From contig DATFYP010000101.1 in NCBI GenBank assembly GCA_035314985.1, positions 1-59,486 of the forward strand: a stretch of 59,486 nucleotides of DNA. Reading direction: 5' to 3'. This stretch comes from Nitrososphaerales archaeon (GTDB lineage Archaea; Thermoproteota; Nitrososphaeria; Nitrososphaerales; Gagatemarchaeaceae). The position numbers and the translations under genes were made by a program. The notes under the pieces are model-generated. The model ran no database searches. It was given only the letters and a program-made list of their open reading frames with translations, and was not told the origin of the DNA. Shown here one piece after another: positions 813-55,106 of this stretch (within the stretch, counting starts at the first letter, position 1; every line of letters starts with the position of its first letter).

Positions 813-1118
813 TTAAGAATTGACTGGGGCCGTCCTCGGGTAACTTGCGTTTCGAATCAACGTCTCCCACTTGTTATCCCCCATCACCCTGATTCCTGCC
901 AAGTCCGCGGGAGTCCGCCCCTTCAACGCCTCATGCGGTCGGATATAGTTGTGGAATATCTGATACCCCCTCAGAATCGGTGTGTCAGTTCGCTTTAGCC
1001 CACGCATGACCTTCTCCCTATCCCGAATCTCCCCGTTCATGCGCTCCATCTTGTTGTTGTGAATCCTCGCCCCTCTTTGGGGGCTGAAGATTCGTCGTGT
1101 CTTACCAGGTTCTGTCAA
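813..1118 (-). pseudogene. IS6-family DDE transposase, C-terminal fragment only
   Basis: The 101-aa ORF reads NNKMERMNGEIRDREKVMRGLK...ILRGYQIFHNYIRPHEALKGRTPADLAGI..GDNKW, typical of the C-terminal third of archaeal IS6/IS240-type transposases. The N-terminal catalytic part is absent. Confidence 0.7.
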
Positions 1119-2205: not shown

Positions 2206-5058
2206 GTGTTCCAGCTCTTCTCCCCTCCCCTGGTCAAGGCGCTGAACGAGAAGGGGTTCGCCTCGCCTACGGACCCTCAGATGAAGCTGGTCCCGCTCGT
2301 GATTCAAGGGAAGAACTCCCTGCTAATGGCCCCGACGGGGACCGGAAAGACCGAGGCGGCCCTGCTCCCGATCCTCGACAGGATGGTCAGGGAGGGGCTC
2401 TCAAGAGAGAAGGGGACGAAACTCCTGTACATCACGCCGCTCAGGGCGCTGAACCGGGACATGCTCGAGAGGATGCAGTGGTGGTGCAAGAGGTTCGACA
2501 TCAGGCTCGGGGTCAGGCACGGCGACAGCACCCAGGCGGAGCGCACGAACATGAGTTTCGCCCCTCCCGACATCCTCATCACGACCCCCGAGACCCTGCA
2601 GATCCTGCTGGTAGGGAGGCGGATTCGGCAGAGTCTGTCGAAGCTCAGGTGGGTCGTGGTAGACGAAGTGCACGAACTCGCCGAAGACAAGAGGGGGAGC
2701 CAGCTGAGCGTGGGGCTGGAGCGCCTGAGGGACGCGGTCGGGGGAGAGTTCCAGACGATAGGGCTCTCCGCCACGGTCGGGTCCCCGGAGAGAATCGCTC
2801 AGTTCCTCGTGGGGAGCGGGAGACAGTGCGAGGTGGTGAGGGTCCCGGTGGAGAAAACCCTCTCGCTCAGGGTGATCTCGCCTAAGGCGACCGCCCATGA
2901 CAAGGAATTCGCCGAGGCGATCTACTCGTATCCTGAGGTGGCCGCGAGACTGAGGGTCATCAGGGAGGCGGTCGAGAAGTACAAGTCGGTGCTCATCTTC
3001 ACCAACACGCGGTCGGAGGCCGAGGCCCTGGCCAGCAGGTTCAGGGTCTGGGACCCGGAGTTCCCGATTGGAATTCACCACAGCTCTCTGTCGAAGGCCA
3101 CAAGGGAGGCGGTCGAAAGGAACCTAAAGGACGGGAAGCTCCTCGGGGTCATCTGCACAAGCAGCCTGGAGTTGGGCATCGACATCGGGTTCCTCGAGTA
3201 CGTCATTCAATACAACTCTCCCAGGCAGGTGACACGGCTGATTCAGAGGGTGGGACGGAGCGGGCACAGGGTAGGCGAGGTCTCAAACGGGCTGATCGTG
3301 ACCCAGGACTCAGACGACACGCTCGAGGCGGCAGTCCTGTGCAGGAAGTCGGTGCGCGGCGAGCTCGAGCCCCTGGTTCCCGTTTCATCCCCCTACGACG
3401 TGGCAATCCACCAGGTAGCGGGGCTCCTGATAGAGCAGCCCACCTGGAACTTCGCCGACCTTGCGGCCCTGCTGAGGAGGAGCGACGCGTATTCCGGGAT
3501 GGACGACCTGAGGCTCAGGAGGGTCCTGACCTACATGCGGGAGCGCTATCCGAGGCTGGCCTACTACGGGGAGTCCGACGGCAGGGTCTCACGGGCGCGA
3601 GATGTGAAGCCGCTGTTCCAGTACTACTTTGACAACCTCTCGATGATTCCCGACGAAAAACAGTACCTGGTGATCGAGGGGGAGAACTTCGTCGGTGTCC
3701 TCGACGAGGCGTTCGTGTCCGAATACGGCGAGGTGGGGGTCAAGTTCGTGGAGGCTGGGCGCTGCTGGAAGGTGGAGCAGATCTACGGGAACAAGGTGTA
3801 CGTCAAGGCGGAGGAGGACCCCACAGGCGCAGTCCCGAACTGGGTCGGAGACGAGATCCCGGTTCCGCTCGAAGTCGCAGCGGAGGTCGGTGCGCTGAGG
3901 CGGAAGTACGCCGAGGCCATCGAGAAAGGGAAGGGGGAGGCGTTCCTCGAGGCGACGATTGGGGAGTACCCTCTATCCAAGGAGACGCTGAGGGAGGCGC
4001 TGAAAGAGGTCGCCGAACAGCACGCCGCGAAGCTTCCGATACCTTCGGAGAGGCTCGTCACCGTCGAGAGGTGGGACAGGTACGTCATAATCCAGGCGGC
4101 CTTCGGCCACAAGGTGAACCGTCTACTGGCGAGGGTGCTGGGGCACATGATTTCGGAGAAGATCGGGCTGTCGGTCGCCGTACACCAGGACCCGTACAGG
4201 ATGGTCATAGAGGCGGATGTTGCGCCCTCGGTGGTCGTCTCAATGCTGACGGGCCTGAAGGGAATCGACCTCCGTGCGGCGACAGAGAAGGCGGTTGAGA
4301 GGTCTGGGATATTCAAGCGAAGGCTGATTCACGCGGGGAAGAAGTGCGGCGCGATAGCCAAGGACGCGGACTACGCCAGCGTTTCGATTTCCGGCATTGT
4401 CGAGGCCCTTCGGGACACGCCGGTCTACGACGAGGCCATGGACATGATCTTCCACGATGACCTGGACGTGCCCGGAGCAGCCGCAGTCGTGGAGAGGATC
4501 GCGAAGGGTGAGGTCGAGGTGAAGCTGGTCGATTACGAGGGGCTCTCTCCCATCGCGAGGATCGGGGTCGAAGAGATCAGCAGGAGGGGGGAGATCGTGT
4601 CCCCGGAACGCCTCAGGGCCCTCCTCAGGCAGTCTACGAGCGCGCGAATCCTCGACACGTTCATGGTCGCGGTCTGCACGAATTGCTGGAACTATCTCGA
4701 GTTGAAGCGGGTCGGCGACCTGGAGGGGGTTGAGAAGTGCAGCTTCTGCGGCCATGAGGCCATCGGACTGTCGACCGACTCCTACGAGAACGTCTTCTCT
4801 CTTGCGATGAAGGCCAGGAGCAGGACGGACATCCGCGGGAGGAACCTCAAGCTCGTCGAAGCGGTCAAGAAGTCGGCGGAGATGAGGAAGGAGTACGGGC
4901 ACTCCTTCGACATGCTGATGGCGGGGAGAGGGGTGAGAATCGCGGACGCTGCCAACCTGGCCGCGAAGATGAGGAAGGAAGGGAAAGACGTGATCGACTC
5001 GATAATGGAAGGGGAGCGCGAGGCCCTAAGGAGGCGCTACTTCTTTGGACCCGCGTGA
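2206..5058 (+). CDS. Lhr-type (COG1201) SF2 DEAD/DEAH helicase, paralogue 1, with C-terminal Zn-ribbon
   Basis: 950 aa. Motif I is APTGTGKTEAALLP and motif II is VVDEVHEL, followed by SATVG, TSSLELGIDIG and QRVGRSGHR. The C-terminus carries CTNCWN...CSFCGH. GTG start. Confidence 0.85.
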   Translation: MFQLFSPPLVKALNEKGFASPTDPQMKLVPLVIQGKNSLLMAPTGTGKTEAALLPILDRMVREGLSREKGTKLLYITPLRALNRDMLERMQWWCKRFDIRLGVRHGDSTQAERTNMSFAPPDILITTPETLQILLVGRRIRQSLSKLRWVVVDEVHELAEDKRGSQLSVGLERLRDAVGGEFQTIGLSATVGSPERIAQFLVGSGRQCEVVRVPVEKTLSLRVISPKATAHDKEFAEAIYSYPEVAARLRVIREAVEKYKSVLIFTNTRSEAEALASRFRVWDPEFPIGIHHSSLSKATREAVERNLKDGKLLGVICTSSLELGIDIGFLEYVIQYNSPRQVTRLIQRVGRSGHRVGEVSNGLIVTQDSDDTLEAAVLCRKSVRGELEPLVPVSSPYDVAIHQVAGLLIEQPTWNFADLAALLRRSDAYSGMDDLRLRRVLTYMRERYPRLAYYGESDGRVSRARDVKPLFQYYFDNLSMIPDEKQYLVIEGENFVGVLDEAFVSEYGEVGVKFVEAGRCWKVEQIYGNKVYVKAEEDPTGAVPNWVGDEIPVPLEVAAEVGALRRKYAEAIEKGKGEAFLEATIGEYPLSKETLREALKEVAEQHAAKLPIPSERLVTVERWDRYVIIQAAFGHKVNRLLARVLGHMISEKIGLSVAVHQDPYRMVIEADVAPSVVVSMLTGLKGIDLRAATEKAVERSGIFKRRLIHAGKKCGAIAKDADYASVSISGIVEALRDTPVYDEAMDMIFHDDLDVPGAAAVVERIAKGEVEVKLVDYEGLSPIARIGVEEISRRGEIVSPERLRALLRQSTSARILDTFMVAVCTNCWNYLELKRVGDLEGVEKCSFCGHEAIGLSTDSYENVFSLAMKARSRTDIRGRNLKLVEAVKKSAEMRKEYGHSFDMLMAGRGVRIADAANLAAKMRKEGKDVIDSIMEGEREALRRRYFFGPA

Positions 5059-5583
5059 GAGGATCATGGTCATCAGGGTCTTTTCGTCGACCTCGGCCCT
5101 CGTCCTCCATCCGATGTGAAGCAAGGACCTGTCGTCCTGTTCCAGGTAGCCTCTCTTGACGTAGCGATCCAGGGAGTACTCCACCCTCCACTTCGGGAAC
5201 TTGTCGCGGAGGAAGTGCTCCACCTCTCGGCGGGCCGCCCTTCCCTGCTTCGAGTTGACGAATGCGATGGTGGACGCGAGGACCGCCAGGTCGTCTATCC
5301 TGATTCCCGAAGTCTCAGCCTCGGAAATCGACGGAGGCTCCTTGAACCGAAGGAGGAAGCGCGAGGTGTCGTCCGTGCCGTCGGGGCCCTTGACCTCGAA
5401 GACTTCCATCCCCAGGGGCGAAACGTCCTCGGAGAGCACTTCGACTATCTGTTTGTACTCCCGCCCCAGGTGCCGCTTGAGCTCCCAGCCTTTGACGCCG
5501 GGGTTCCTTCCCCTCTGGAGGACAAGGACCTGGAAGGCCTTCCTCACCTTCCGCTCGAGCAGCGCCTTGTCGGCGGTCTCCAT
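5026..5583 (-). CDS. tandem winged-helix kite-like subunit (ScpB / MAGE-Nse3-like)
   Basis: 185 aa from the internal ATG (METADK...), which overlaps the upstream stop as ATGA. There are two WH-like repeats. The C-terminal YVKRGYLEQ...HIGWRTRAEVDEKTLMTMI resembles the MAGE homology domain tail. Confidence 0.6.
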   Translation of the reverse strand: METADKALLERKVRKAFQVLVLQRGRNPGVKGWELKRHLGREYKQIVEVLSEDVSPLGMEVFEVKGPDGTDDTSRFLLRFKEPPSISEAETSGIRIDDLAVLASTIAFVNSKQGRAARREVEHFLRDKFPKWRVEYSLDRYVKRGYLEQDDRSLLHIGWRTRAEVDEKTLMTMILSRGSKEVAPP

Positions 5584-6248
5584 CAAGCTCCCTCCGACAC
5601 CGAGATAGCGACCGATTTTGGCACTCCGCCAACCTTCTCCCTGAGCGCCATGGTCCACACCTTCCCAGTTAGCGGGTCGGTCCTCAGAGACGCCTGGCCG
5701 TCGCTGATTAGGAATGAGAGGAGATAGGCCCGGACGACCTTAGCCGCGAAGCTGTCAGCCTTGATGAACTCCCCGTAGTCGATCCAGTCCCCGTTCGACT
5801 TCTGCAGAAGCGCCTCGTGTAGCTCCTTCAGGTCCTTGTCGAACTGCTGGCGCGTGAAAACCCCCAGTTCGATGAGCTCGGCGTAGCCGACGGAGCCTGG
5901 CTTTGTGCCATAGCTCCCGAACTGGTCCTTGAACCGCTCCGCCATCGGCAGCAGGTCCCGCCAGTACACGAAGGCCCTTTCGAGCCCCTTCGGAGAGATC
6001 TGGTCGAGCTGGACGATGGGGTGCCAGCTCTTGACGAACGCCTCGCTCAGCTCGTTCTTGGCGAGGAGCTTGACCTTCAGCTGTATCAGCAGAGGGTCGA
6101 TGTAAAGCGAGGAGGCCCTGTGCTTGAGCCACTCGTCCTGCAGCTTGACTATCTGGGCGAGCTCGAGCATCGCCTCCGAGTCCAGGAGGAGTTCGTCGAG
6201 GAACTTCCACTCCGGAAGGCGCTCCTTCAGCACCCGGATCTTCTCCAC
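5583..6248 (-). CDS. kleisin-like subunit (ScpA/Nse4-like)
   Basis: 221 aa with a GTG start. It has a helical N-terminus and a C-terminal winged-helix-like KVVRAYLLSFLISDGQASLRTDPLTGKVW. It sits between the SMC-like and kite-like genes and is translationally coupled to the downstream gene. The start is uncertain: the ORF stays open in frame up to 6347. Confidence 0.5.
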   Translation of the reverse strand: MEKIRVLKERLPEWKFLDELLLDSEAMLELAQIVKLQDEWLKHRASSLYIDPLLIQLKVKLLAKNELSEAFVKSWHPIVQLDQISPKGLERAFVYWRDLLPMAERFKDQFGSYGTKPGSVGYAELIELGVFTRQQFDKDLKELHEALLQKSNGDWIDYGEFIKADSFAAKVVRAYLLSFLISDGQASLRTDPLTGKVWTMALREKVGGVPKSVAISVSEGA

Positions 6249-6342
6249 AATGTCGACTTCGAACGGGTTCGCGCTGGAGCCCTGGACGCTCCTGCAGAGT
6301 TCGATGACCCTGAGGATCTCCTCGAGCTTCTCCTGCTCCAGG

Positions 6343-8298
6343 CTACTTCAGCTCCCTGACCTCGGTCGGACCGTGGACCGCCTGTACAGTGATGACGTGG
6401 GCGCTCTTGTCGAAGACGGTGAGGATGGACGGAGTGATGACGATGTACTGCGAAGCCGCCCGCTGCTTCATCTGCGTGAGAATCATCTTGAACATGGCCT
6501 CGCGGTTCTTCGGGTCCATGTGGATGTCGAACTCGTCCATCGCCCTGAGAGGAGAGACGATCCTTGCCTGGAGAGAGAGGATGAAGGCCATCAGTGCCAC
6601 TGAACGTTCTCCGCCGCTCTGGGTGAACGGGTCGAGCGTGTTTGGCGGGCCCCCCCTGAAGCCCACGTAGAGGTCTATCCCTGCGTCTTCTATCTCGGCC
6701 CCCTCCTCGAACTTCACGAAGCCGGTCGCGTCCGCGGCTGAAAGCACGGCCTTGTACGGCGGGTCGATTGACATCACCAGGTTCTCCATGGCCCCCCTCC
6801 AGACCTTCTTCCTGGACTGCAGCTCGGCGAGCATCGCCTTCTTGTTGTCCTGGAGCTGGGCAAGTTTGCTCTTGAGCTCATCCACGTTTCCGGTATAGTC
6901 GTTGTAGATCTTCTCCGCGTCGTCCGGGATGTCTTGCATCTTCTGCAGGTGGGCAGAGACCAGCTTGAGCTCCTCCGAGACCTCGTAGGGTTGTCTCGCC
7001 GTCTCCATCCGCGCCCCAGCCTTCTCCAGGTCGGGTTTCAGCTTCTCGAGCTCTGAGCGGTATTCGCGGGCGCTCCTTTCGAGCTCCCTGAGGTCTGACT
7101 CCGTCACCCGGGCACGATACAGCAGGACCTCTCCCTTCACCCTGAGCGAGACGTAGGTCTCGATCGTCTTCCTGACCACCTCCTCCACGGCGCCGATCTC
7201 GGACTGGAGAGAGGAGACCTCCCTGTCGAGCTCCCCCTTCCGCCTCCCTGCGTCTTCTTCCGAGGAGGCGCCCTTTCCTTCGATGTAATCCACCAGTTCC
7301 TTTATCCTCGCGCTGCCTTTCTTGGGCGCCTGTGCCAGCGCCTCGTCCAAGGTTCGCGACAGGCCAGCAAGGTCCTCCTTCAGCGCCTTGTAGGCGCTCC
7401 TCGACCCTTCGTCCTTCGCCCTCTCGCTCTCCGCCCTCACCAGGGCGTAGTACAGCTTCCTGAGTTCCGCCTGCTTGTCAAGGAGGGTCTGGTGCGACTC
7501 CTCGGCGTCCTTGGTCATGGCCCGCTGCTGCGACTTCAGGTCTTCCAGTGCGTTGGTCTTGGCGGTGATCTTCTCCTGGACGGATTCGAGCGATTTCACG
7601 ATCTTGGACTCGGTGCTCCAAAGGAGCTCTCTGGCCAGGAGCTCCCTGTGCTCCTTGAGCTTCTTCTTCTCCAGGTATCTGTCGTAGATCTGCTTCCAAT
7701 ACTCCAGAGCCTGGTTGGCGTTGTCGATGAGCTGCAGCAGGGAACTCTCCTCCCCGATAAGGCCCCCGAGCTCCTGCTCCGCCAGGAGGATCCTCTGCCT
7801 GTATTCGGAGAAGCCTACCGCTTCCTCCACCATCCTGAGCCTCTCCTGCGGGGTGACCGCCCCCAGCTCCTCTATCATCCCCTGATGCATTATGATCAGA
7901 AGGTTGTCGGGGTTGATTCCGAACTCTCCCAGGAGCCTCACCACCTCGCTCTTGTCGATCTCCTTGTAGTCGGCCTCGAACCAGTATGAGCCGTCCTTCC
8001 TGAGGTACCTGCTGAGCATGAACGTGTCGGACTTCGAGTATGGGATCGGCCTCTTCCCGTTCACCGCGGTGTTGTCGAAGACGAGCGACACCCTCGCGAT
8101 GTCCTTGCCCCGCCGTATGAGGTCAGACAGCTTCCTTGACCTCTCCGTGTAGGCCTGGCCGAAGGCGACCGAGATGGCGAGAAGGACGGAGGACTTGCCC
8201 GCGCCGTTGGGCCCGATTATGAGGTTCAGGCCCTCCTTGAGCGGTATCCTGGCGTATTCGTAACTCATGAAGTTCTCCAGAATTATCTCCTTCACCAT
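6343..8298 (-). CDS. hinge-less SMC-like ATPase with an Smc5/6-like head (archaeal SMC-related protein)
   Basis: 651 aa from MVKEIILENFMSY. Walker A is GPNGAGKSS. About 330 aa of E/K/L/A-rich coiled coil follow, with no Cys hook and no globular hinge. The signature is QSGGERSV and Walker B is LRAMDEFDIHMD, followed by SQYIVITPSIL. Confidence 0.8.
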   Translation of the reverse strand: MVKEIILENFMSYEYARIPLKEGLNLIIGPNGAGKSSVLLAISVAFGQAYTERSRKLSDLIRRGKDIARVSLVFDNTAVNGKRPIPYSKSDTFMLSRYLRKDGSYWFEADYKEIDKSEVVRLLGEFGINPDNLLIIMHQGMIEELGAVTPQERLRMVEEAVGFSEYRQRILLAEQELGGLIGEESSLLQLIDNANQALEYWKQIYDRYLEKKKLKEHRELLARELLWSTESKIVKSLESVQEKITAKTNALEDLKSQQRAMTKDAEESHQTLLDKQAELRKLYYALVRAESERAKDEGSRSAYKALKEDLAGLSRTLDEALAQAPKKGSARIKELVDYIEGKGASSEEDAGRRKGELDREVSSLQSEIGAVEEVVRKTIETYVSLRVKGEVLLYRARVTESDLRELERSAREYRSELEKLKPDLEKAGARMETARQPYEVSEELKLVSAHLQKMQDIPDDAEKIYNDYTGNVDELKSKLAQLQDNKKAMLAELQSRKKVWRGAMENLVMSIDPPYKAVLSAADATGFVKFEEGAEIEDAGIDLYVGFRGGPPNTLDPFTQSGGERSVALMAFILSLQARIVSPLRAMDEFDIHMDPKNREAMFKMILTQMKQRAASQYIVITPSILTVFDKSAHVITVQAVHGPTEVRELK

Positions 8299-8454
8299 GG
8301 TCGGTGGAAGGTGCGCCTCTCTGGAGACCTCTTCTGTTCTGCGCGACAAACTTCCGAAATGCGCGACCGAGTCACGGATTTAGACCTTCCGCATGTTTGT
8401 GTTGGATTGGGCTTCGAAAGGGCTTAAATCGCTGGGCCGGTTTTCTGGTCCGAA

Positions 8455-11298
8455 TTGAGCCCCGGCCATCCGTTCACCTCTCTCACCCCTGCGGTGCGAG
8501 GGTTCCTCGCTGAGTCGGGGATAACCGAGCCGACCCCTCCACAGGTGCAGGCGTGGCCCCTCATCGCCGAGGGGGAGAATGTCCTCATAGTGGCCCCCAC
8601 CGGCTCGGGGAAGACCGAGGCAGCCCTGCTCCCACTCCTCGGGAGAATCGCCGCGGGGGGACACGGGGAGGGGATATCGCTTCTCTACATCACGCCGATG
8701 AGGGCACTCAACCGTGACATGCTGAAGAGGCTCCAGGTCTGGTGCTCCAGGCTAGGGCTCACCGTCGACATCAGACACGGGGACACCCCTCAGAGTCAAC
8801 GCGCAAAGCAGTCCTCTCACCCCCCGGACGTGCTGGTGACCACCCCGGAGACGCTGCAGGCCATCCTCCCCGGGAGCAGGATGAGAGAGAACCTGGGGCA
8901 CCTCAAGGCCGTCGTCGTGGACGAGCTGCACAGCCTAGTCGAGAGCAAGAGGGGAGTGCAGCTCTGCGTCGGCCTGCAGAGGCTCAGACGGGTCGCAGGA
9001 GAGTTCCAACTTGTCGCGCTCTCTGCGACGGTGGGGACCCCCGATGTCGCGGCCCAGTTCCTTTTCGGCGGGAGGAAGCGGACCATAGTAAAGGCCGAGG
9101 CGCCGAAGGAATTCACATACAGCATAGAGTACCCGGTCCCCGACCCAGCAGACCAGACGACAGCCAGAGAGACCTACGCTGCCCCCGACCTCGCGGCGAG
9201 GCTGGCCCGGATCGACAGGCTGATCGAGGAGCACCGGTCGACTTTGATCTTCGTCAACGCGCGGACAGTTGGAGAGATGCTCGGCGAAAAGCTCGCGAGA
9301 CTCCGCAAAGACACCGCCGTTCATCATGGTTCTCTGCCGAGGGAGGAGAGGGAGAGGGTCGAACAGGCGTTCAAGTCGGGGCAGCTGAAGGCGCTCGTGT
9401 GCACGTCCACCCTTGAGCTGGGGATAGATGTCGGGTCGGTGGACCTCGTGGTGCAGTACATGTCCCCCCGACAGGTCACATCGCTGGTGCAGAGGGTCGG
9501 GAGGAGCGGCCATAGCCTGGGGAGGGTGTCGGAGGGAGTCCTGGTCACCGTGTCGGCCGACGACGTCCTCGAATCTTCGTCCAGCATCTTAGAAGCGCGC
9601 CGGGGAAAGATCGAGCCGACCAGGCCATATGTTAACTGCCTCGATGTGCTCGCCCACCAGGTCGCCGGGTACCTGATGGACCGGGAGAGCATCGAAGCGG
9701 GAGACCTGCTTGAGGAGGTGAGAGCTGCCTCGCCGTTCAAGGACCTCTCGGAGGAAGCGTTCTGGAGGACGGTGAAGTACCTGGCCGAGCTGAGGAAGAT
9801 AAGAATAGACGGGACCCGGCTCTCGAGGACGAGGCTGACCAGGGACTACTACTTCGAGAACCTCTCGATGATCCCCGACGAGACGAGGTACCTGGTCGTC
9901 GACGTCACGACCAACCAGTCGGTGGGGATACTCGGGGAGGAGTTCGTCCTTCTGAAGGCGAAGGTGGGGGTCCACTTCATCTGCAAGGGGAAAGTCTGGC
10001 AGATAGAGCAGATAGCCGACGACAGGAAGATCTACGTGACGCCGGCCGACGACCCGCTGGCGGCGCTGGCAACCTGGGACGGGGAGATGCTCCCAATCCC
10101 GTTCGGCCTGGCGCAGATGACGGGGAAGCTGCGCCGGGAGGTGTCCGAGGGGCTCGACAGCGGGGAGGAGGGGCTAGATGCTGTGCTGAAGAGGATCCCG
10201 GGAGACGCGGCCGCGAGAGCGCTGGTCGTGGACCAGATCTCGGAGCACAAGAAGATGGGGGCGGCGGTCCCCTCGGACAAGGTGATCCTATTCGAAGGGT
10301 TCGGGAAGTACCTGATCGTCCACCTGTGCTTCGGGGAGTCGGTGAACCGGACCTTCGCCTACGTTTTCGAGGAGATCCTGTCGAGGAGGGGCCTCGTCAG
10401 GGTCTGGTGGCTGGACGGCTACCGCCTCCTGATGGAGCTCACCACAGACACGGAAGAGCTCGACCTCGGCTCGGTGGCAAAGGAGCTGATGGGGCTGCAG
10501 CCGGAGGAGCTCGAAAGGACCTATGCGGTGGCTGCCCAGAGGAACTTCCCGTTCCCTTCACGAGTGAAGCAAGTCGCTGAGAGGTTCGGCGCCCTCAAGA
10601 GGGGGAAGCTGATAGCTCACCCGAACCTCTGCTCGCTCCCCACCCGTTTCGAGAAGACCCCGATATTCGAGGAGGCGCTTCAGGAGACCGGGCGGGACCT
10701 GATCGACATGGCGAGGGCGAAGGAAGTCCTCACGATGGTGGCAGACGGCAGGATCACGGTGGAGACCTACCTGGCGGGGGAGAGGCCGACGCCGATAGCC
10801 TACGCGCTTCTCTACCGGTACCTGGAGGTGCCTGAAGCGGTCGCTCCCGACTCCCTAGGGAGGACCTCCTACCAGCGCATGAAGGCCAGCATCTTCGGGA
10901 CCGAAGTGAGCATGCTGTGCTTCAAGTGCGGTCTCGACCAAGGATACGCCACGGTGGGGGATCTTGCCGAAGAGCCGAGGTGCCGCTCCTGCGGGTCCGG
11001 ACTCCTCGTGCCATGCTACTGGGGGACGGGCAAGGTTGGCGACCTCGTGCGGAGGAAAGCGTCAAAGGAACAGCTCAGCGATGAAGAGAGGGGAGAGCTC
11101 GCGAAGGCGAGGAGGGGTGCCGACCTCGTCCTTTCATACGGGAAGAAGGCCGTGGTCGCCCAGACGGTGTACGGGATAGGACCCCAGACGGCGTCAAGGA
11201 TCCTCGCGGAGATGCGAGATGACGAGGAGGCTTTCTACAGGGACCTCCTCGAGGCGAAGATCAGGTTCGTGACCACCAGACAGTTCTGGTCGAACTGA
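8455..11298 (+). CDS. Lhr-type (COG1201) SF2 helicase, paralogue 2, with C-terminal Zn-ribbon
   Basis: 947 aa with a TTG start. Motifs are APTGSGKTEAALLP, VVDELHSL, SATVG, TSTLELGIDVG and QRVGRSGHS. The C-terminus carries CFKCG...CRSCGS. The architecture matches 2206..5058. Confidence 0.85.
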   Translation: MSPGHPFTSLTPAVRGFLAESGITEPTPPQVQAWPLIAEGENVLIVAPTGSGKTEAALLPLLGRIAAGGHGEGISLLYITPMRALNRDMLKRLQVWCSRLGLTVDIRHGDTPQSQRAKQSSHPPDVLVTTPETLQAILPGSRMRENLGHLKAVVVDELHSLVESKRGVQLCVGLQRLRRVAGEFQLVALSATVGTPDVAAQFLFGGRKRTIVKAEAPKEFTYSIEYPVPDPADQTTARETYAAPDLAARLARIDRLIEEHRSTLIFVNARTVGEMLGEKLARLRKDTAVHHGSLPREERERVEQAFKSGQLKALVCTSTLELGIDVGSVDLVVQYMSPRQVTSLVQRVGRSGHSLGRVSEGVLVTVSADDVLESSSSILEARRGKIEPTRPYVNCLDVLAHQVAGYLMDRESIEAGDLLEEVRAASPFKDLSEEAFWRTVKYLAELRKIRIDGTRLSRTRLTRDYYFENLSMIPDETRYLVVDVTTNQSVGILGEEFVLLKAKVGVHFICKGKVWQIEQIADDRKIYVTPADDPLAALATWDGEMLPIPFGLAQMTGKLRREVSEGLDSGEEGLDAVLKRIPGDAAARALVVDQISEHKKMGAAVPSDKVILFEGFGKYLIVHLCFGESVNRTFAYVFEEILSRRGLVRVWWLDGYRLLMELTTDTEELDLGSVAKELMGLQPEELERTYAVAAQRNFPFPSRVKQVAERFGALKRGKLIAHPNLCSLPTRFEKTPIFEEALQETGRDLIDMARAKEVLTMVADGRITVETYLAGERPTPIAYALLYRYLEVPEAVAPDSLGRTSYQRMKASIFGTEVSMLCFKCGLDQGYATVGDLAEEPRCRSCGSGLLVPCYWGTGKVGDLVRRKASKEQLSDEERGELAKARRGADLVLSYGKKAVVAQTVYGIGPQTASRILAEMRDDEEAFYRDLLEAKIRFVTTRQFWSN

Positions 11299-11333: not shown

Positions 11334-12017
11334 TTGGTACTAGCGGGGAAGGTCTTCCTGGTCAGAGAGAACTACGACATGGACGTCCTGGCCGAGAAGC
11401 TCAAGGCGTTCAGGATTGAAACGGAGACCAGCGTCGAAGAGCAGGAGTTCAAGCTCGTCTCAGAGATCAAGGACCTCAGCGCCGGCAAGGGGACGCTGGA
11501 AGGGACATTCACCTTCGACTCAGTGTTCATCGTGCGCCACAGGGGGAAGGCGGTGCCCGTCCCGAGGACCTACGAGGCACCGTTTGCCTTCGACCAATCA
11601 AAGGAAAGGCTGTTTTTGACGGTCTACGACAAGAAAAACAGGGCCAACAACATAGCGAACGAGATAAGCAAGGCGGTCTTCCTGAGCCTCGGGCAGATCG
11701 TGGAAGCCAGAATCGACCCCGAGACGCTGAAGAAGTTCCACGAGGCGAACTTTGACGACACGAAAATCATATTTTTCGATGACGTAGACCTGCCGAACAT
11801 AGACAAGCTGTCGCTGTACGGCGCGGGGCTAGGGAGCACGAGCCTGTACTCGGACTACCTGACCCATGGGAAGCTCTGGTACATAGTGATCAAGAGCAGG
11901 AAGACGGGGTACGTTCTCGGCGTGACGAGGAACTGTGTGGTTACCGGGTTCAGCAAGATGGACATGAACGAGTTCACCTCCTTCATCAAGACGGAGATTA
12001 TCCCGCTGATCGCCTAG
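11334..12017 (+). CDS. hypothetical protein inserted between the Lhr helicase and the MPE phosphoesterase
   Basis: 227-aa ORF with good coding appearance and no recognisable motif. Its stop lies 1 nt before the start of the next gene. Confidence 0.5.
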   Translation: MVLAGKVFLVRENYDMDVLAEKLKAFRIETETSVEEQEFKLVSEIKDLSAGKGTLEGTFTFDSVFIVRHRGKAVPVPRTYEAPFAFDQSKERLFLTVYDKKNRANNIANEISKAVFLSLGQIVEARIDPETLKKFHEANFDDTKIIFFDDVDLPNIDKLSLYGAGLGSTSLYSDYLTHGKLWYIVIKSRKTGYVLGVTRNCVVTGFSKMDMNEFTSFIKTEIIPLIA

Positions 12018-12018
12018 C

Positions 12019-12777
12019 TTGCTGAAGATAGTCCCCGGCGAAGCCGCACTCGTGTTCGAGAACTCGGGCCAGAAGACGCTCCTCATCTCGGACCTGCATC
12101 TGGGCCTGGAGAAGGAGATGGCGCGGAAGGGCTTCCGTCTGCCGTCTTACACCGTGAGGATGGTCGGAAAGGTGAGGGACCTCGCCGAAAGGTGCGGGAC
12201 GACGAAGCTCGCCGTGCTCGGGGACGTGAAGCACTCCGTGGGGAAGGTCGAAGACATAGACTGGAGCGCCGTCCCATGGTTCTTCGACACGATGCTGGAC
12301 CTCTTCGAGACGGTCGAGGTCGTCCCTGGAAACCACGACGGGAACCTGCGGACAGTCCTCCCTCAGCGGGTGACCCTCCATCCGTCTCATGGGACGGTGC
12401 TGGGGCAGGGGAGGGGAAGGGTCGGGGTCTGCCATGGCCATGCCTGGCCTTCAGAGGAGGCGATCTTGACGCGCAACCTGGTCATAGGCCACTCTCACTT
12501 CACATACGAGATGAGGGACAACCTGGGGTCGAGGTCTCGGGAATCGGTATGGGTTTTCACGAGCTACCGGGTGAGGGAACTGATGGAAGGGGCCGGGTTC
12601 GGCGTGAAGGGAAGTGGCGAGGGCAAGCTCACGGTCATGCCGCCCTTCAATAGGCTTGTCGGAGGACAGCCGATCAACAGGAGCAAGTCGTTCCAGTTCG
12701 GCCCGGTGCTTTCATCAAGGTCCGTCAATCTGGACGGGGCCGATATCTTCCTGCTGGACGGAACGAGGGTCAGCTAG
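12019..12777 (+). CDS. binuclear metallophosphoesterase (COG1407 / MPE type, Lhr-associated)
   Basis: LLISDLHLGLE, AVLGDVKH, VVPGNHD and GVCHGHAWP are the calcineurin-like phosphoesterase motifs. Confidence 0.8.
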   Translation: MLKIVPGEAALVFENSGQKTLLISDLHLGLEKEMARKGFRLPSYTVRMVGKVRDLAERCGTTKLAVLGDVKHSVGKVEDIDWSAVPWFFDTMLDLFETVEVVPGNHDGNLRTVLPQRVTLHPSHGTVLGQGRGRVGVCHGHAWPSEEAILTRNLVIGHSHFTYEMRDNLGSRSRESVWVFTSYRVRELMEGAGFGVKGSGEGKLTVMPPFNRLVGGQPINRSKSFQFGPVLSSRSVNLDGADIFLLDGTRVS

Positions 12778-17805: not shown

Positions 17806-18131
17806 AAGTGGCGGCGGCTCCCCCGGAGTTCACCATCGGTCTCCGCCCCCGTCTCGCCAGACGGAGAATCCCCCACGTAGACGAAGCAGCGTGGCCACGT
17901 CACCATAGGGCTGCTCCCTCCCGGACCTCGCCCGATTCGGCAATTAGTGGTCAGGACCTCTCCTTCGAGAGGACTGCCTCTCATGACCGCCCGCCACGGC
18001 GTGAGTTCGTCTCCTCCGCCCGACGCAGGTTGCGGGGATGGTGGCTTTACCCGAAGGTTGCTGGCCTCTGCATGTTGCCGGTTTCAGCCTATCGGGAGAC
18101 GGCAACCCTCCCTGCCCTACCCGCCGCCAGT
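17806..18131 (-). ncRNA. signal recognition particle RNA (7S RNA), ends +/-5 nt
   Basis: The termini pair (GGCGGCGG with CCGCCGCC). The helix-8 signature GGUCCGGGAGGGAGCAGCC is close to the universal GGUCCGGAAGGAAGCAGCC. A helix-6-like hairpin CUCUC-GAAG-GAGAG is present. The ~326-nt length fits archaeal SRP RNA. An A/T box TTAATTA lies about 25 nt upstream. Confidence 0.85.
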
Positions 18132-54807: not shown

Positions 54808-55106
54808 AAGACGCGAGTCGGTGGACGGGCCACGGGGACCTCCTGGGGAAGTTCCTCCCTCACGGCAGGACGCGCGGCGCCACGAGGCGCAGCCGGAGAC
54901 GGCTGGCTCCAGAACAGAAACGACACCCGCCCCATCAAGGGCGATGATAGGGAAACCTTGAGGTCGGTGGGGAGCGGGATGAAACGGCTGACCCGCGCGG
55001 AGCAAGGCCGAACGTGGTCGATGATAGGCCTGCGGGAGACCAAGGTGGGCCGCTTAGCTGAATCCCGTCTAGAACAGGAGGAGGACTACGGCCGAATACG
55101 CGTCAG
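54808..55106 (+). ncRNA. rnpB: RNase P RNA (type A-like), ends +/-5 nt
   Basis: P1 is GACGCG/CGCGTC. The CR-I-like segment GGGGAAGTTCCTCC pairs with the 3' ACAGGAGGAGGACT as P4. AGAACAGAAACG, GGGATGAAACGG and CGGAGCAAGGCCGAA (compare E. coli CGGAGCAAGGCCAAA) are also present. An A/T box gttattt lies about 25 nt upstream. Confidence 0.75.

What the first reader, a model, noticed from the sequence alone, without database searches (positions are those of the whole stretch)
5026..8298. Compact SMC5/6-like ATPase + kleisin-like + MAGE/Nse3-like kite operon
Three co-directional genes form the operon, and the last two overlap as ATGA.
(1) The 651-aa SMC-like ATPase starts MVKEIILENFMSY..GPNGAGKSS. 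Its C-terminal head reads QSGGERSVALMAFILSLQ..LRAMDEFDIHMDPKNREAMFKMIL..SQYIVITPSIL. From memory this tracks eukaryotic Smc5 (QSGGERSV..VVDEINQGMDPINER..SQYFFITPKLL) more closely than Rad50 or canonical SMC. The roughly 330-aa coiled coil has no Zn hook and no hinge domain.
(2) The 221-aa helical protein has a C-terminal winged-helix-like end, the position and shape expected for a kleisin.
(3) The 185-aa protein is made of two winged-helix repeats. Its tail YVKRGYLEQ..HIGWRTRAEVDEKTLMTMI mirrors the MAGE-homology-domain tail (YLEYRQV..FLWGPRA.AETSK.KVLEF).
Together this looks like a minimal Smc5/6-type (SMC / Nse4 / Nse3) holocomplex in an archaeon. It could act in repair or chromosome maintenance, or in Wadjet/Smc5-6-like restriction of extrachromosomal DNA.
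Basis: partly seen in the sequence, partly recalled or inferred. Interest (0 to 1): 0.85.

Follow-up and report, generated by a model that had tools for sequence, protein, structure and literature searches.

The report
Hinge-less archaeal SMC5/6-like operon
This archaeal chromosome carries a three-gene operon for a miniature relative of the eukaryotic Smc5/6 genome-maintenance complex; such operons are already described in archaea, but this ATPase lacks the hinge that normally joins two SMC arms.

Summary
Three tightly packed minus-strand genes (5026-8349) encode:
- an SMC-type ATPase whose best solved-structure matches are Smc5 (E 2e-29) and Smc6 (3e-21), ahead of canonical SMC (1e-17) and Rad50 (1e-8);
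- a kleisin, with an N-domain like ScpA and a C-terminal winged helix like ScpA, Nse4 and Scc1;
- a tandem winged-helix kite whose top fold matches are MAGE-A4, NSE3, Nse1 and Nse3.

Three details need correcting:
- The ATPase probably starts at TTG 8349 (668 aa).
- The kleisin is 252 aa, not 221. It starts at a CTG one base after the ATPase stop.
- The last two genes overlap as TGATG, not ATGA.

The kind is already published. SMC5/6-related SMC, Nse4-like and Nse1/3-like operons in TACK and Asgard archaea were described by Yoshinaga and Inagaki (2021) and van Hooff et al. (preprint, 2024/25).

I did not find two points in those papers. First, this large clade is compact (548-685 aa), with no hinge and no zinc hook. 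Second, the operon sits next to a convergent Lhr repair helicase both here and in a distant Thermofilales genome.

Most likely function: a chromosomal, homodimeric, ATP-gated DNA clamp for genome maintenance or repair, not a defence system. Moderate interest.

The parts
6343..8349 (-). SMC5/6-related ATPase. 668 aa from TTG 8349; an alternative start at ATG 8298 gives 651 aa. Layout: head, coiled coil of about 150 aa, short apex, coiled coil of about 150 aa, head. No hinge, no zinc hook.
   Evidence: Pfam SMC_N 1.6e-34 and no SMC_hinge hit. Solved structures: Smc5 2.4e-29, Smc6 3.4e-21, Smc 2e-17, Rad50 2e-8. The N-terminal extension is conserved in relatives that lack a Met at the MVKEI position.
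8191..8214 (-). Walker A motif GPNGAGKS (residues 29-36 in the 651-aa numbering)
   Evidence: Invariant across the family alignment A4; sequence read.
6604..6621 (-). ABC signature motif QSGGER
   Evidence: Aligned to Smc5 QSGGER. G562 is invariant and S561, G563, E564 and R565 are nearly invariant (90% or more) in A4.
6526..6543 (-). Walker B / D-loop AMDEFD (continuing as ..IHMD)
   Evidence: Aligned to Smc5 VVDEINQGMD. Smc6-like proteins have LDEFDVFMD.
7243..7347 (-). Coiled-coil apex (about residues 318-352, rich in Pro and Gly). This is where other SMCs carry the distal arm and hinge. It is the least conserved part of the protein.
   Evidence: Break in heptad pattern at about 331-347. 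Lowest conservation, 0.61-0.77, among 120 close homologues. Long relatives insert about 350 aa here.
5583..6341 (-). Kleisin (Nse4/ScpA-like). 252 aa from CTG 6341; a mechanical ORF call from GTG 6248 gives 221 aa.
   Evidence: Homologues are 252 aa and the N-terminal 31 aa are conserved. Pfam Nse4_C E 0.004-0.005, below cut-off.
6126..6341 (-). Kleisin N-terminal helical domain (residues 1-72), the expected binder of the SMC neck
   Evidence: Profile A6 against PDB: top hit is the ScpA N-domain 6ivh_A, E 0.0029, residues 1-72 aligned to 1-71.
5622..5864 (-). Kleisin C-terminal winged-helix domain (about residues 160-240), the expected binder of the SMC cap
   Evidence: AF2 pLDDT 75-93. Foldseek: ScpA C-WHD 4i99_C (TM 0.79, prob 1.0), Nse4 (7qcd_F, 7tve_G, 8t8f_G) and Scc1-C (1w1w_E).
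5026..5583 (-). Kite of the Nse1/Nse3/MAGE type, 185 aa, two winged-helix domains (residues 2-80 and 96-157)
   Evidence: AF2 mean pLDDT 71.5 with two WH units. Foldseek top 7: MAGE-A4 9.6e-5, MAGE-G1/NSE3 1.2e-4, Nse1 3.4e-4, Nse3, NSE1. There is no sequence-level hit.
8350..8454 (.). 105-bp divergent intergenic region between the operon and the upstream Lhr gene; presumed promoters. A TCTAAAT element lies about 30 nt upstream of TTG 8349.
   Evidence: Sequence read. The promoter assignment is an inference only.
2206..5058 (+). Lhr-type helicase A (950 aa), convergent with the kite gene; the two 3' ends overlap by 33 nt
   Evidence: Pfam DEAD, Helicase_C, WH_Lhr and DEAD_assoc. The same arrangement is seen in L001-L003, L166 and L167 and in Thermofilales L005, whose Lhr is 41% identical.
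8455..11298 (+). Lhr-type helicase B (947 aa), divergent from the operon
   Evidence: Pfam. Conserved in L001-L003, L166 and L167.
11334..12777 (+). Two genes downstream of Lhr B: an unknown 227-aa protein and a 252-aa metallophosphoesterase. The helicase-phosphoesterase pairing matches the known Lhr-MPE association.
   Evidence: Pfam Metallophos 4.7e-4. Conserved in relatives. The Lhr-MPE association is described in PMC8301817.

Best explanation
The operon encodes the archaeal counterpart of the eukaryotic Smc5/6-Nse4-Nse1/3 core, in a reduced, hinge-less form.

Shown:
- The ATPase head is of the Smc5/6 type, with intact Walker A, Q-loop, signature and Walker B motifs.
- Gene 2 is a kleisin, with a ScpA-like N-domain and a kleisin-type C-terminal winged helix.
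- Gene 3 is a tandem winged-helix kite of the MAGE/Nse1/Nse3 type.
- The three genes are translationally packed and syntenic across Nitrososphaeria and Thermoproteia.
- The locus is chromosomal and under strong purifying selection.

Inferred from established SMC-kleisin-kite architecture (Smc-ScpAB, MukBEF, Smc5/6):
- Two copies of the single ATPase engage head-to-head on two ATP molecules.
- One kleisin bridges the neck of one head (through its N-domain) and the cap of the other (through its C-terminal winged helix).
- A kite dimer sits on the central part of the kleisin.

Because there is no hinge or hook, the two 150-residue arms (about 22 nm) cannot be covalently closed into a ring at the apex. 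I therefore propose that the complex works mainly as an ATP-gated DNA clamp. DNA would be held on top of the engaged heads by the kleisin and kites, as in the DNA-clamp state of yeast Smc5/6. It would not work as a long-range loop extruder.

The conserved convergent Lhr helicase (archaeal Lhr prefers replication-fork structures, PMC7437997) suggests action at stalled forks or recombination intermediates. That functional link is inferred from gene neighbourhood only.
For: Identity of the ATPase:
- Solved-structure ranking is Smc5, then Smc6, then Smc/Smc3/Smc1, then Rad50.
- The shared C-head motifs QSGGERSV, DEF/I-D/N-x-x-MD and QYxxITP are seen in Smc5/6-like proteins, but not in the canonical SMCs in the list, which have QFIVISLK.
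- In a rough neighbour-joining head tree, the family groups with Smc5/6-like proteins; two canonical SMCs were used as the outgroup.

Kleisin.

Kite.

Operon packing:
- The ATPase stop TAG (6345-6343) lies one base before the kleisin start position (6341).
- Kleisin and kite overlap as TGATG.

Synteny:
- Close relatives: L001-L003, L166, L167.
- Distant relatives: L004, L005, L085.
- Published: in 31 of 31 archaeal genomes that have both, the Nse4-related kleisin and the Nse1/3-related kite are neighbours.

Housekeeping character:
- The ATPase is 80-96% identical across more than 100 MAG proteins.
- The flanks are enolase, Nramp, thioredoxin, LipA and 2-oxoacid dehydrogenase genes.
- Archaeal RNase P RNA and SRP RNA lie in the same window.
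- No full-length relative was found on viral contigs.

Lhr link: the convergent arrangement of kite and Lhr recurs in Thermofilales, where the ATPase is only 36% identical.
Against: - Nothing here tests stoichiometry, bridging, or DNA binding.
- The kleisin model is poor overall (pLDDT 56.7); only its C-terminal domain is confident.
- The kite has no significant sequence-level match to MAGE, Nse1 or Nse3. The assignment rests on Foldseek hits with low TM-scores (about 0.35), because the two domains are oriented differently.
- Pfam Nse4_C is below its gathering score.
- The arms might still dimerise through apex or coiled-coil contacts (as in RecN), which would restore a closed ring. I could not model the ATPase.
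- The Lhr adjacency outside the Nitrososphaerales rests on one informative locus.
- The neighbour-joining tree is crude and does not resolve Smc5/6 monophyly.
Confidence: 0.72

Rival explanations
1. An anti-plasmid or anti-virus defence system of the Wadjet (JetABCD) or Lamassu type. An SMC-like sensor would recognise foreign DNA and trigger its cleavage or abortive infection.
For: - Generic PADLOC hits to mad3 (1.3e-28), LmuB (3.9e-14) and JetC (2.5e-10).
- JetB and MukE kites appear at ranks 9-10 of the fold search.
- Eukaryotic Smc5/6 restricts extrachromosomal viral DNA (established knowledge).
Against: - No JetD/Toprim nuclease or LmuA-type effector lies in the neighbourhood.
- The kleisin and kite have no PADLOC hit at all.
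- The locus keeps a fixed housekeeping context in all relatives examined, and the proteins are 80-100% conserved. Defence islands are typically patchy and variable.
- The viral-contig scan gave only generic P-loop matches.
- MAGE and Nse1/3 kites outrank JetB and MukE.
Confidence: 0.07
2. A Rad50/SbcC- or RecN-like double-strand-break repair ATPase whose two small neighbours are unrelated DNA-binding proteins.
For: - Short coiled coil without a hinge, as in RecN.
- NCBIfam Rad50 models hit at 1e-17.
- Repair helicases and a metallophosphoesterase lie nearby.
- Long members of the same family carry a central CxxC like the Rad50 hook.
Against: - Rad50 and RecN score far below Smc5/6 and below canonical SMC: solved-structure E 2e-8 against 2e-29, and RecN 1e-5.
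- The window protein has no cysteine, so it has no hook.
- There is no adjacent Mre11. The phosphoesterase belongs to the Lhr-MPE pair.
- The two neighbours have kleisin and kite folds and co-vary in position with the ATPase.
Confidence: 0.04
3. A divergent canonical Smc-ScpA-ScpB condensin that organises and segregates the chromosome by loop extrusion.
For: - The best NCBIfam hit is SMC_prok_A (4.4e-49).
- The kleisin N-domain and C-terminal winged helix match ScpA best among solved structures.
- The gene order SMC, kleisin, kite is the same as in Smc-ScpAB operons.
Against: - SMC_prok_A scores 167 bits against a cut-off of 729.
- There is no hinge and the arms are short.
- Smc5/6 outrank Smc among solved structures.
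- ScpB is absent from the top 50 fold matches of the kite, whereas MAGE and Nse1/3 lead.
- Published data list a separate ScpA-like kleisin and ScpB-like kite in the related family UBA183.
Confidence: 0.1
4. A ClsN (coalescin) or ASRP-type archaeal chromosome-compartment factor.
For: - Archaeal, compact, SMC-like and without a hinge.
- Weak hits to NCBIfam ASRP (6.7e-11) and arcadin-4 (3.5e-10).
- Long family members have a CxxC like the ASRP hook.
Against: - The ASRP model scores 41.5 bits against a cut-off of 300, and the matched stretches are short N-terminal ones.
- ASRPs carry a zinc hook, whereas the window protein has no hook. From my own knowledge, ASRPs are not known to have kleisin or kite partners.
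- The window protein has both kleisin and kite partners.
Confidence: 0.05

Closest known systems
Archaeal 'SMC5/6-related' SMC-kleisin-kite operons (Yoshinaga & Inagaki 2021, PMC8665677; van Hooff et al., bioRxiv 10.1101/2024.01.07.573240)
   Same: - A single SMC-type ATPase related to Smc5/6.
- An adjacent Nse4-related kleisin and Nse1/3-related kite, in the order SMC, kleisin, kite.
- Found mostly in TACK and Asgard archaea, including Nitrososphaeria.
- A homodimeric complex is inferred.
   Different: - Neither paper comments on hinge loss or protein length in the text I could search.
- For Nitrososphaerales families such as UBA183, their table lists only the kite, not the SMC or the Nse4-like kleisin; their data were downsampled.
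- The Lhr adjacency is not mentioned there.
- Here the ATPase is 668 aa with a bare apex of about 30 residues.
Eukaryotic Smc5/6 holocomplex (Smc5-Smc6-Nse4-Nse1-Nse3, plus Nse2 and Nse5/6)
   Same: - Head sequence motifs QSGGERSV, DExxxxMD and QYxxITP.
- A kleisin with a C-terminal winged helix that weakly matches Nse4_C.
- A kite with the MAGE-type tandem winged-helix fold, ending in a GY(L/I)...WR(T/S)(R/K)xE(V/I)D tail analogous to the YLEYRQ...LWGPRA tail of MAGE domains (the MAGE tail is recalled from memory).
   Different: - One ATPase gene (homodimer) instead of the Smc5/Smc6 heterodimer.
- One kite without a RING domain instead of Nse1 plus Nse3.
- No Nse2 or Nse5/6 nearby.
- About 390 fewer residues per ATPase: no hinge and no distal arm.
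- The kleisin is ScpA-sized (252 aa).
Bacterial and archaeal Smc-ScpAB
   Same: - Homodimeric SMC, one kleisin and a kite dimer.
- Same operon order.
- The kleisin N-domain is detectably homologous to ScpA (E 0.003).
   Different: - The head is closer to Smc5/6.
- The kite is closer to MAGE/Nse1/3 than to ScpB.
- No hinge.
- Arms are about one third to one half the usual length.
Hinge-less SMC-superfamily ATPases (Rad50/SbcC, RecN, ClsN/ASRP, Lamassu LmuB)
   Same: Split ABC head and a coiled coil without a globular SMC hinge. Long paralogues in the same family (P0375, P0376, P0388) even carry a central CxxC.
   Different: From my own knowledge, those proteins are not known to use a kleisin plus kite. 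Rad50 and ASRP dimerise through a zinc hook (ASRP), which the window protein cannot form because it has no cysteine. Their sequence similarity to the window protein is much lower.

Membership tests
Archaeal SMC5/6-related SMC-kleisin-kite complex | ATPase head groups with eukaryotic Smc5/Smc6 rather than with canonical SMC or Rad50 | tested here: met
   Solved-structure phmmer: Smc5 2.4e-29, Smc6 3.4e-21, Smc 2e-17, Rad50 2e-8. The next-best class in the 1.84-billion-protein library carries the Smc5 or Smc6 C-terminal motifs. A rough neighbour-joining tree agrees.
Archaeal SMC5/6-related SMC-kleisin-kite complex | Adjacent kleisin of the Nse4-related type | tested here: inconclusive
   The kleisin fold is clear: ScpA N-domain E 0.0029, and the C-terminal winged helix tops kleisin structures. 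Nse4-type versus ScpA-type is not resolved. Pfam Nse4_C E 0.004 is below the cut-off and the EID3/NSE4B match has E 0.7-1.1. No kleisin phylogeny was run.
Archaeal SMC5/6-related SMC-kleisin-kite complex | Adjacent kite of the Nse1/Nse3 (MAGE) type | tested here: met
   Foldseek top 7 are all MAGE-A4, MAGE-G1/NSE3, Nse1 or Nse3 (E from 9.6e-5 to 2.4e-3, prob 0.99-1.0). There is no ScpB in the top 50. Support is at fold level only; no sequence-level hit was found.
Archaeal SMC5/6-related SMC-kleisin-kite complex | Co-linear gene cluster SMC, kleisin, kite, conserved in relatives | tested here: met
   Seen in the window, L001-L003, L166 and L167, L004 and L005, and L085.
SMC proteins in the strict sense | Split ABC-type head with Walker A, Q-loop, signature and Walker B motifs | tested here: met
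   GPNGAGKS, MHQ, QSGGER and MDEFD are present and invariant or nearly invariant in the family.
SMC proteins in the strict sense | Globular hinge dimerisation domain at the coiled-coil apex | tested here: not met
   No SMC_hinge hit at E up to 1. About 133 residues stand where Smc5 has about 520. The apex is roughly 30 residues or fewer, rich in Pro and Gly, and the least conserved segment. Long relatives carry an extra insert of about 350 aa at this point.
Eukaryotic Smc5/6 holocomplex | Smc5/Smc6 heterodimer, Nse1 (RING) plus Nse3 kite pair, and the Nse2 and Nse5/6 subunits | tested here: not met
   The cluster has one ATPase gene and one 185-aa kite without a RING domain. No further subunits lie in the neighbourhood. 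Only the 59-kb window was examined.
Rad50/SbcC | Central CxxC zinc hook and an adjacent Mre11/SbcD nuclease | tested here: not met
   The protein has no cysteine. There is no adjacent Mre11; the nearby metallophosphoesterase pairs with Lhr. Rad50 models score far below their cut-offs.
Wadjet / JetABCD | JetC-type SMC with JetA kleisin, JetB kite and the JetD Toprim nuclease | tested here: not met
   JetC HMMs match weakly and only partially. The kleisin and kite have no PADLOC hits. No Toprim or nuclease gene is nearby.
ASRP (ClsN/Sph) and arcadin-4 | Reaches the NCBIfam family cut-off; carries a zinc hook | tested here: not met
   NF045487 scores 41.5 bits against a cut-off of 300. NF053563 scores 38.7 against 860. 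There is no CxxC.
Canonical Smc-ScpAB | Reaches the TIGR02169/TIGR02168 cut-off; carries a hinge; has a ScpB-type kite | tested here: not met
   167 bits against 729 and 114 bits against 567. No hinge. The kite's fold matches are MAGE and Nse1/3, not ScpB.

The most novel reading that the evidence does not exclude
A widespread archaeal clade of Smc5/6-type kleisin-kite complexes has dispensed with the hinge altogether. The two heads would be joined only by ATP, the kleisin and the kites. The complex would act as a compact DNA clamp that cooperates with Lhr helicases at damaged replication forks. If so, hinge-mediated ring closure is not essential for a kleisin-kite SMC machine, and this 668 + 252 + 185-aa complex would be the smallest natural model of the Smc5/6 core. 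Within the same family, related long forms carry a Rad50-like CxxC hook, and the one whose context I could read stands alone without kleisin or kite. That hints that hook-mediated and kleisin-mediated dimerisation are interchangeable solutions.
Probability: 0.3. Interest if true: 0.75.

Novelty: new variant of a known kind. Interest (0 to 1): 0.55.

Why it matters
Smc5/6 is the least understood eukaryotic SMC complex, and its archaeal relatives are so far known only from phylogenomics.
- A naturally minimal, homodimeric, hinge-less version totals about 1,100 residues of unique sequence. It would be a convenient target for structural and biochemical work on how the Smc5/6 head, kleisin and kite module grips DNA.
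- It would test whether the hinge is needed at all.
- It bears on what the SMC5/6 ancestor looked like before eukaryotes arose.
- The recurring Lhr neighbour gives a concrete, testable hypothesis for the pathway: replication-fork repair.
- Practically, the case shows that gene callers truncate the kleisin in some lineages (221 or 195 aa instead of 252) because it lacks a canonical start codon. That can hide it from family surveys.

Tried and rejected
- Kite at sequence level. Searches against Pfam, NCBIfam, PADLOC and PDB sequences, using the single sequence and two profiles, found nothing significant. Only the fold comparison identified it.
- Kleisin close-homologue profile. It gave only E 0.2 to ScpA. 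Adding two distant homologues improved this to 0.003.
- Genome-collection scan with the family alignment. I therefore could not obtain a taxonomic census or a statistic for Lhr co-occurrence.
- Viral-contig scan. It returned only generic N-terminal P-loop matches, with the same row-limit caveat.
- Hinge in the long relatives. Pfam SMC_hinge is also missing from the long relatives and from the Smc5/6-like proteins I scanned, so absence of that hit alone is not proof of hinge loss. The hinge-less conclusion rests on length, the alignment to Smc5 and the long forms, and the apex composition.
- ATPase model.
- Stop-codon readthrough of the ATPase into the kleisin. Rejected, because the conserved peptide is in the +1 frame, not frame 0.
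- A +1 frameshift fusion at the conserved AAGTAGC. Considered, but the codon pairing is poor and most relatives have an ordinary ATG, GTG or TTG there. I favour reinitiation at a near-cognate codon.

Full report
WHAT IS THERE

The window is a piece of archaeal chromosome. It carries archaeal RNase P RNA and SRP RNA. The closest protein relatives come from Nitrososphaerales / Candidatus Gagatemarchaeaceae MAGs.

Three genes lie head-to-tail on the minus strand between 5026 and 8349:
- The ATPase stop TAG (6345-6343) is followed, one base later, by the position where the second gene starts in relatives (6341).
- The second and third genes share one base (TGATG, 5585-5581).
- Upstream lies a 105-bp divergent intergenic region.
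- Downstream, the third gene overlaps the 3' end of a convergent gene by 33 nt.

CORRECTIONS TO THE GENE MODELS

ATPase start. In most relatives the residue at that position is K, R, N or T, and the protein begins 17 residues upstream with a conserved (M/L)SRRxEEVSKE... peptide. TTG 8349 (668 aa) is therefore the likely start. A TCTAAAT element about 30 nt upstream would fit an archaeal TATA box (inference only).

Second gene. It is not 221 aa. Of the 120 listed homologues, 94 are 252 aa and start MEQEKLEEILRVIELC.... The window encodes the same 31 extra residues in frame, but the codon aligned to their Met is CTG. The same CTG is found in two independent assemblies that are 96% identical. In another relative the codon is TCG, while the downstream peptide is still conserved. 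These 31 residues include the DPF-x-VDI motif of the kleisin N-domain, so they are almost certainly translated.

THE ATPASE

Family placement:
- Pfam gives SMC_N (1.6e-34) and no hinge hit.
- NCBIfam SMC, Rad50, ASRP and arcadin-4 models all score far below their cut-offs.
- Against all solved structures, the ranking is Smc5 (2.4e-29), Smc6 (3.4e-21), prokaryotic Smc and Smc3 (about 1e-17), Smc1 (1e-14) and Rad50 (2e-8).
- HMMER aligns TQSGGERSVALMAFILSLQ..LRAMDEFDIHMDPKNRE..SQYIVITPSIL with the corresponding Smc5 segments.

Wider library:
- In a library of 1.84 billion representative proteins, the family itself accounts for the hits down to about E 1e-30.
- The next class is about 1,000-1,170 aa long and carries VVDEINQGMD...QYFLITPKLL (the Smc5 motifs seen) or LDEFDVFMD (which I recall as the Smc6 form).
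- A rough neighbour-joining tree of head columns recovers the family as a clade (86% bootstrap). It sits next to the Smc5/6-like sequences; two canonical SMCs were used as the outgroup.

NO HINGE, NO HOOK

- Query residues 4-271 align to Smc5 residues 20-285, and query residues 404-628 align to Smc5 residues 804-1030. About 133 residues therefore replace about 520.
- A crude heptad scan shows two arms of about 150 residues, separated by a Pro/Gly-rich break near residues 331-347.
- That apex is the least conserved part of the protein among 120 close homologues.
- The protein has no cysteine.
- This is not a truncation artefact. About 50 full-length clusters at 30-46% identity are 541-685 aa long.
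- Four relatives are 982-1047 aa and carry an extra insert of about 350 aa exactly at the apex. In three of them the midpoint of that insert is C-D-K-C or C-E-R-C, which is a candidate zinc hook.
- In the neighbour-joining tree these long forms nest inside the compact ones.
- One caveat: Pfam SMC_hinge also misses the long relatives and the Smc5/6-like proteins I scanned. The hinge-less conclusion therefore rests on length and alignment, not on that missing hit.

THE KLEISIN

- Pfam Nse4_C matches residues 192-223 at E 0.004-0.005, below the gathering score.
- A profile that includes two distant homologues hits the ScpA N-terminal domain (6ivh_A) as its top solved-structure match, E 0.0029, residues 1-72. 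The human Nse4 paralogue EID3 matches at E 0.7 over the C-terminal domain (earlier).
- The AlphaFold2 model is poor overall (pLDDT 56.7), as expected for a flexible linker protein, but residues 160-240 score 75-93.
- Foldseek's best matches are the ScpA C-terminal winged helix bound to the Smc head (4i99_C, TM 0.79, prob 1.0), followed by Nse4, ScpA, Scc1 and RAD21 chains.

THE KITE

- No sequence method finds anything.
- The AlphaFold2 model (pLDDT 71.5) has two winged-helix units.
- The seven best Foldseek matches are MAGE-A4, MAGE-G1/NSE3, Nse1 and Nse3 (E from 9.6e-5 to 2.4e-3). JetB and MukE follow, and ScpB is absent from the top 50.
- TM-scores are low (about 0.35) because the two domains are oriented differently.
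- The C-terminal GY(L/I)...WR(T/S)(R/K)xE(V/I)D motif is conserved in relatives with only 33-41% identity.

CONSERVATION AND CONTEXT

- Six loci from relatives 82-96% identical in the ATPase, or 69-70% identical in the kleisin, keep the arrangement MPE, 227-aa gene, Lhr (leftward) | ATPase, kleisin, kite (rightward) | Lhr (leftward), inside a housekeeping neighbourhood.
- Three distant loci, where the ATPase is 36-37% identical to the window or is related to the long form, also place a kleisin directly after a compact ATPase, and a kite where the contig allows. These are Thaumarchaeota UBA160, a Thermofilales MAG and a metagenome contig.
- In the Thermofilales locus the kite is again followed by a convergent Lhr, 41% identical to the window's Lhr A.
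- The one long CxxC-bearing relative whose context I could read stands alone, with no kleisin or kite beside it.

WHAT IS ALREADY KNOWN

- Yoshinaga and Inagaki (PMC8665677) defined 80 'SMC5/6-related' archaeal SMCs, mostly in TACK archaea including Thaumarchaeota.
- van Hooff et al. (bioRxiv 10.1101/2024.01.07.573240) showed that TACK and Asgard archaea have operons of an SMC5/6-related SMC, an Nse4-related kleisin and an Nse1/3-related kite. In 31 of 31 genomes that have both, the kleisin and kite are neighbours.
- The kind is therefore published.
- Their table lists only the kite for several Nitrososphaerales families, including UBA183; their data were downsampled.
- Neither paper discusses hinge loss in the searchable text.
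- A survey of archaeal Lhr neighbourhoods mentions the metallophosphoesterase but no SMC.
- No other paper in the library covers archaeal Nse4 and kite proteins.

HOW IT MOST LIKELY WORKS

By homology to all kleisin-kite SMC complexes, I infer the following:
- a homodimer of ATPases engaged on two ATP molecules;
- one kleisin bridging the neck of one head and the cap of the other;
- a kite dimer on the central part of the kleisin.

Without a hinge or hook, the arms cannot close a ring at the apex. I therefore favour an ATP-gated DNA clamp (DNA on the engaged heads under the kleisin and kites) over a loop extruder.

Three observations favour genome maintenance or repair over defence:
- the fixed chromosomal context;
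- the strong conservation;
- the Lhr neighbours (archaeal Lhr targets fork structures, PMC7437997).

There is also no nuclease partner, no PADLOC hit for the small subunits, and no full-length relative on viral contigs. All of this mechanism is inference; nothing here tests binding or activity.

VERDICT

The finding is real and correctly interpreted. It belongs to an already described kind. The reduced, hinge-less architecture and the Lhr association are additions worth a specialist's attention.

Noticed in passing
window 6339-6347; L001 about 12005-12040; L002 and L003 about 11954-11990: The kleisin gene lacks a canonical start codon in several lineages although its N-terminal 31 residues are conserved. 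The window and two assemblies 96% identical to it have CTG one base after the ATPase stop (AAGTAG C CTG). L001 has TCG there and no ATG, GTG or TTG for about 57 codons. Other relatives have ATG, TTG or GTG at the same spot (L166: TAG|TTG; L167: TAG G ATG). Gene callers therefore report 221 or 195 aa instead of 252. This suggests termination-coupled reinitiation at non-canonical codons. A +1 shift producing an ATPase-kleisin fusion was considered and seems less likely.
   Followed up: partly
P0375, P0376, P0388 (relatives of the window ATPase); L084 4843-8019: Long members (1016-1058 aa) of the same SMC5/6-like family carry a CxxC (EKPQI(R/K)CDKCGS, or CERC) at the exact midpoint of an apex insert of about 350 aa. 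This is a candidate Rad50/ClsN-like zinc hook on an Smc5/6-type head. In a rough tree they nest among the compact forms. In L084 the gene stands alone, with no kleisin or kite beside it, whereas every compact form examined is followed by a kleisin.
   Followed up: partly
window 2206-5058 and 8455-11298; L005 3951-6788: Two paralogous Lhr-type helicases (35% identical to each other), each with a C-terminal pair of CxxC motifs, bracket the operon. The arrangement of kite and convergent Lhr recurs in a Thermofilales MAG whose ATPase is only 36% identical. I did not find this adjacency in the papers on archaeal Lhr or SMC that I read.
   Followed up: partly
window 11334-12777: Downstream of Lhr B lie a conserved 227-aa protein with no Pfam hit and a 252-aa metallophosphoesterase. 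This resembles the known Lhr-MPE pairing, but with an extra uncharacterised gene in between. The trio is conserved in all close relatives examined.
   Followed up: no
window 8298-8349: The ATPase has a conserved 17-residue N-terminal extension, (M/L)SRRxEEVSKE..., ahead of the canonical SMC N-terminus. In most relatives it is the only possible start. Its function is unknown.
   Followed up: partly
window 6906-6995 (ATPase residues 436-465): A Pro-containing interruption of the C-terminal arm (QPYEVSEELKLVSAHLQKMQDIPDDAEKIY) is 97-100% conserved among 120 close homologues. That is much higher than the surrounding coiled coil. It may be a joint or a partner-binding site.
   Followed up: no
window 813-1118 (minus strand): A 101-aa ORF (…RIFSPQRGARIHNNKMERMNGEIRDREKVMRGLK…ILRGYQIFHNYIRPHEAL…) looks like a C-terminal fragment of an IS-type transposase or integrase near the window edge. 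No search was run on it.
   Followed up: no
window 17812-18126 (minus) and 54813-55101 (plus): Archaeal SRP RNA (102 bits) and archaeal RNase P RNA (185 bits) lie in the window. ARAGORN found no tRNA genes in the full 59 kb.
   Followed up: yes
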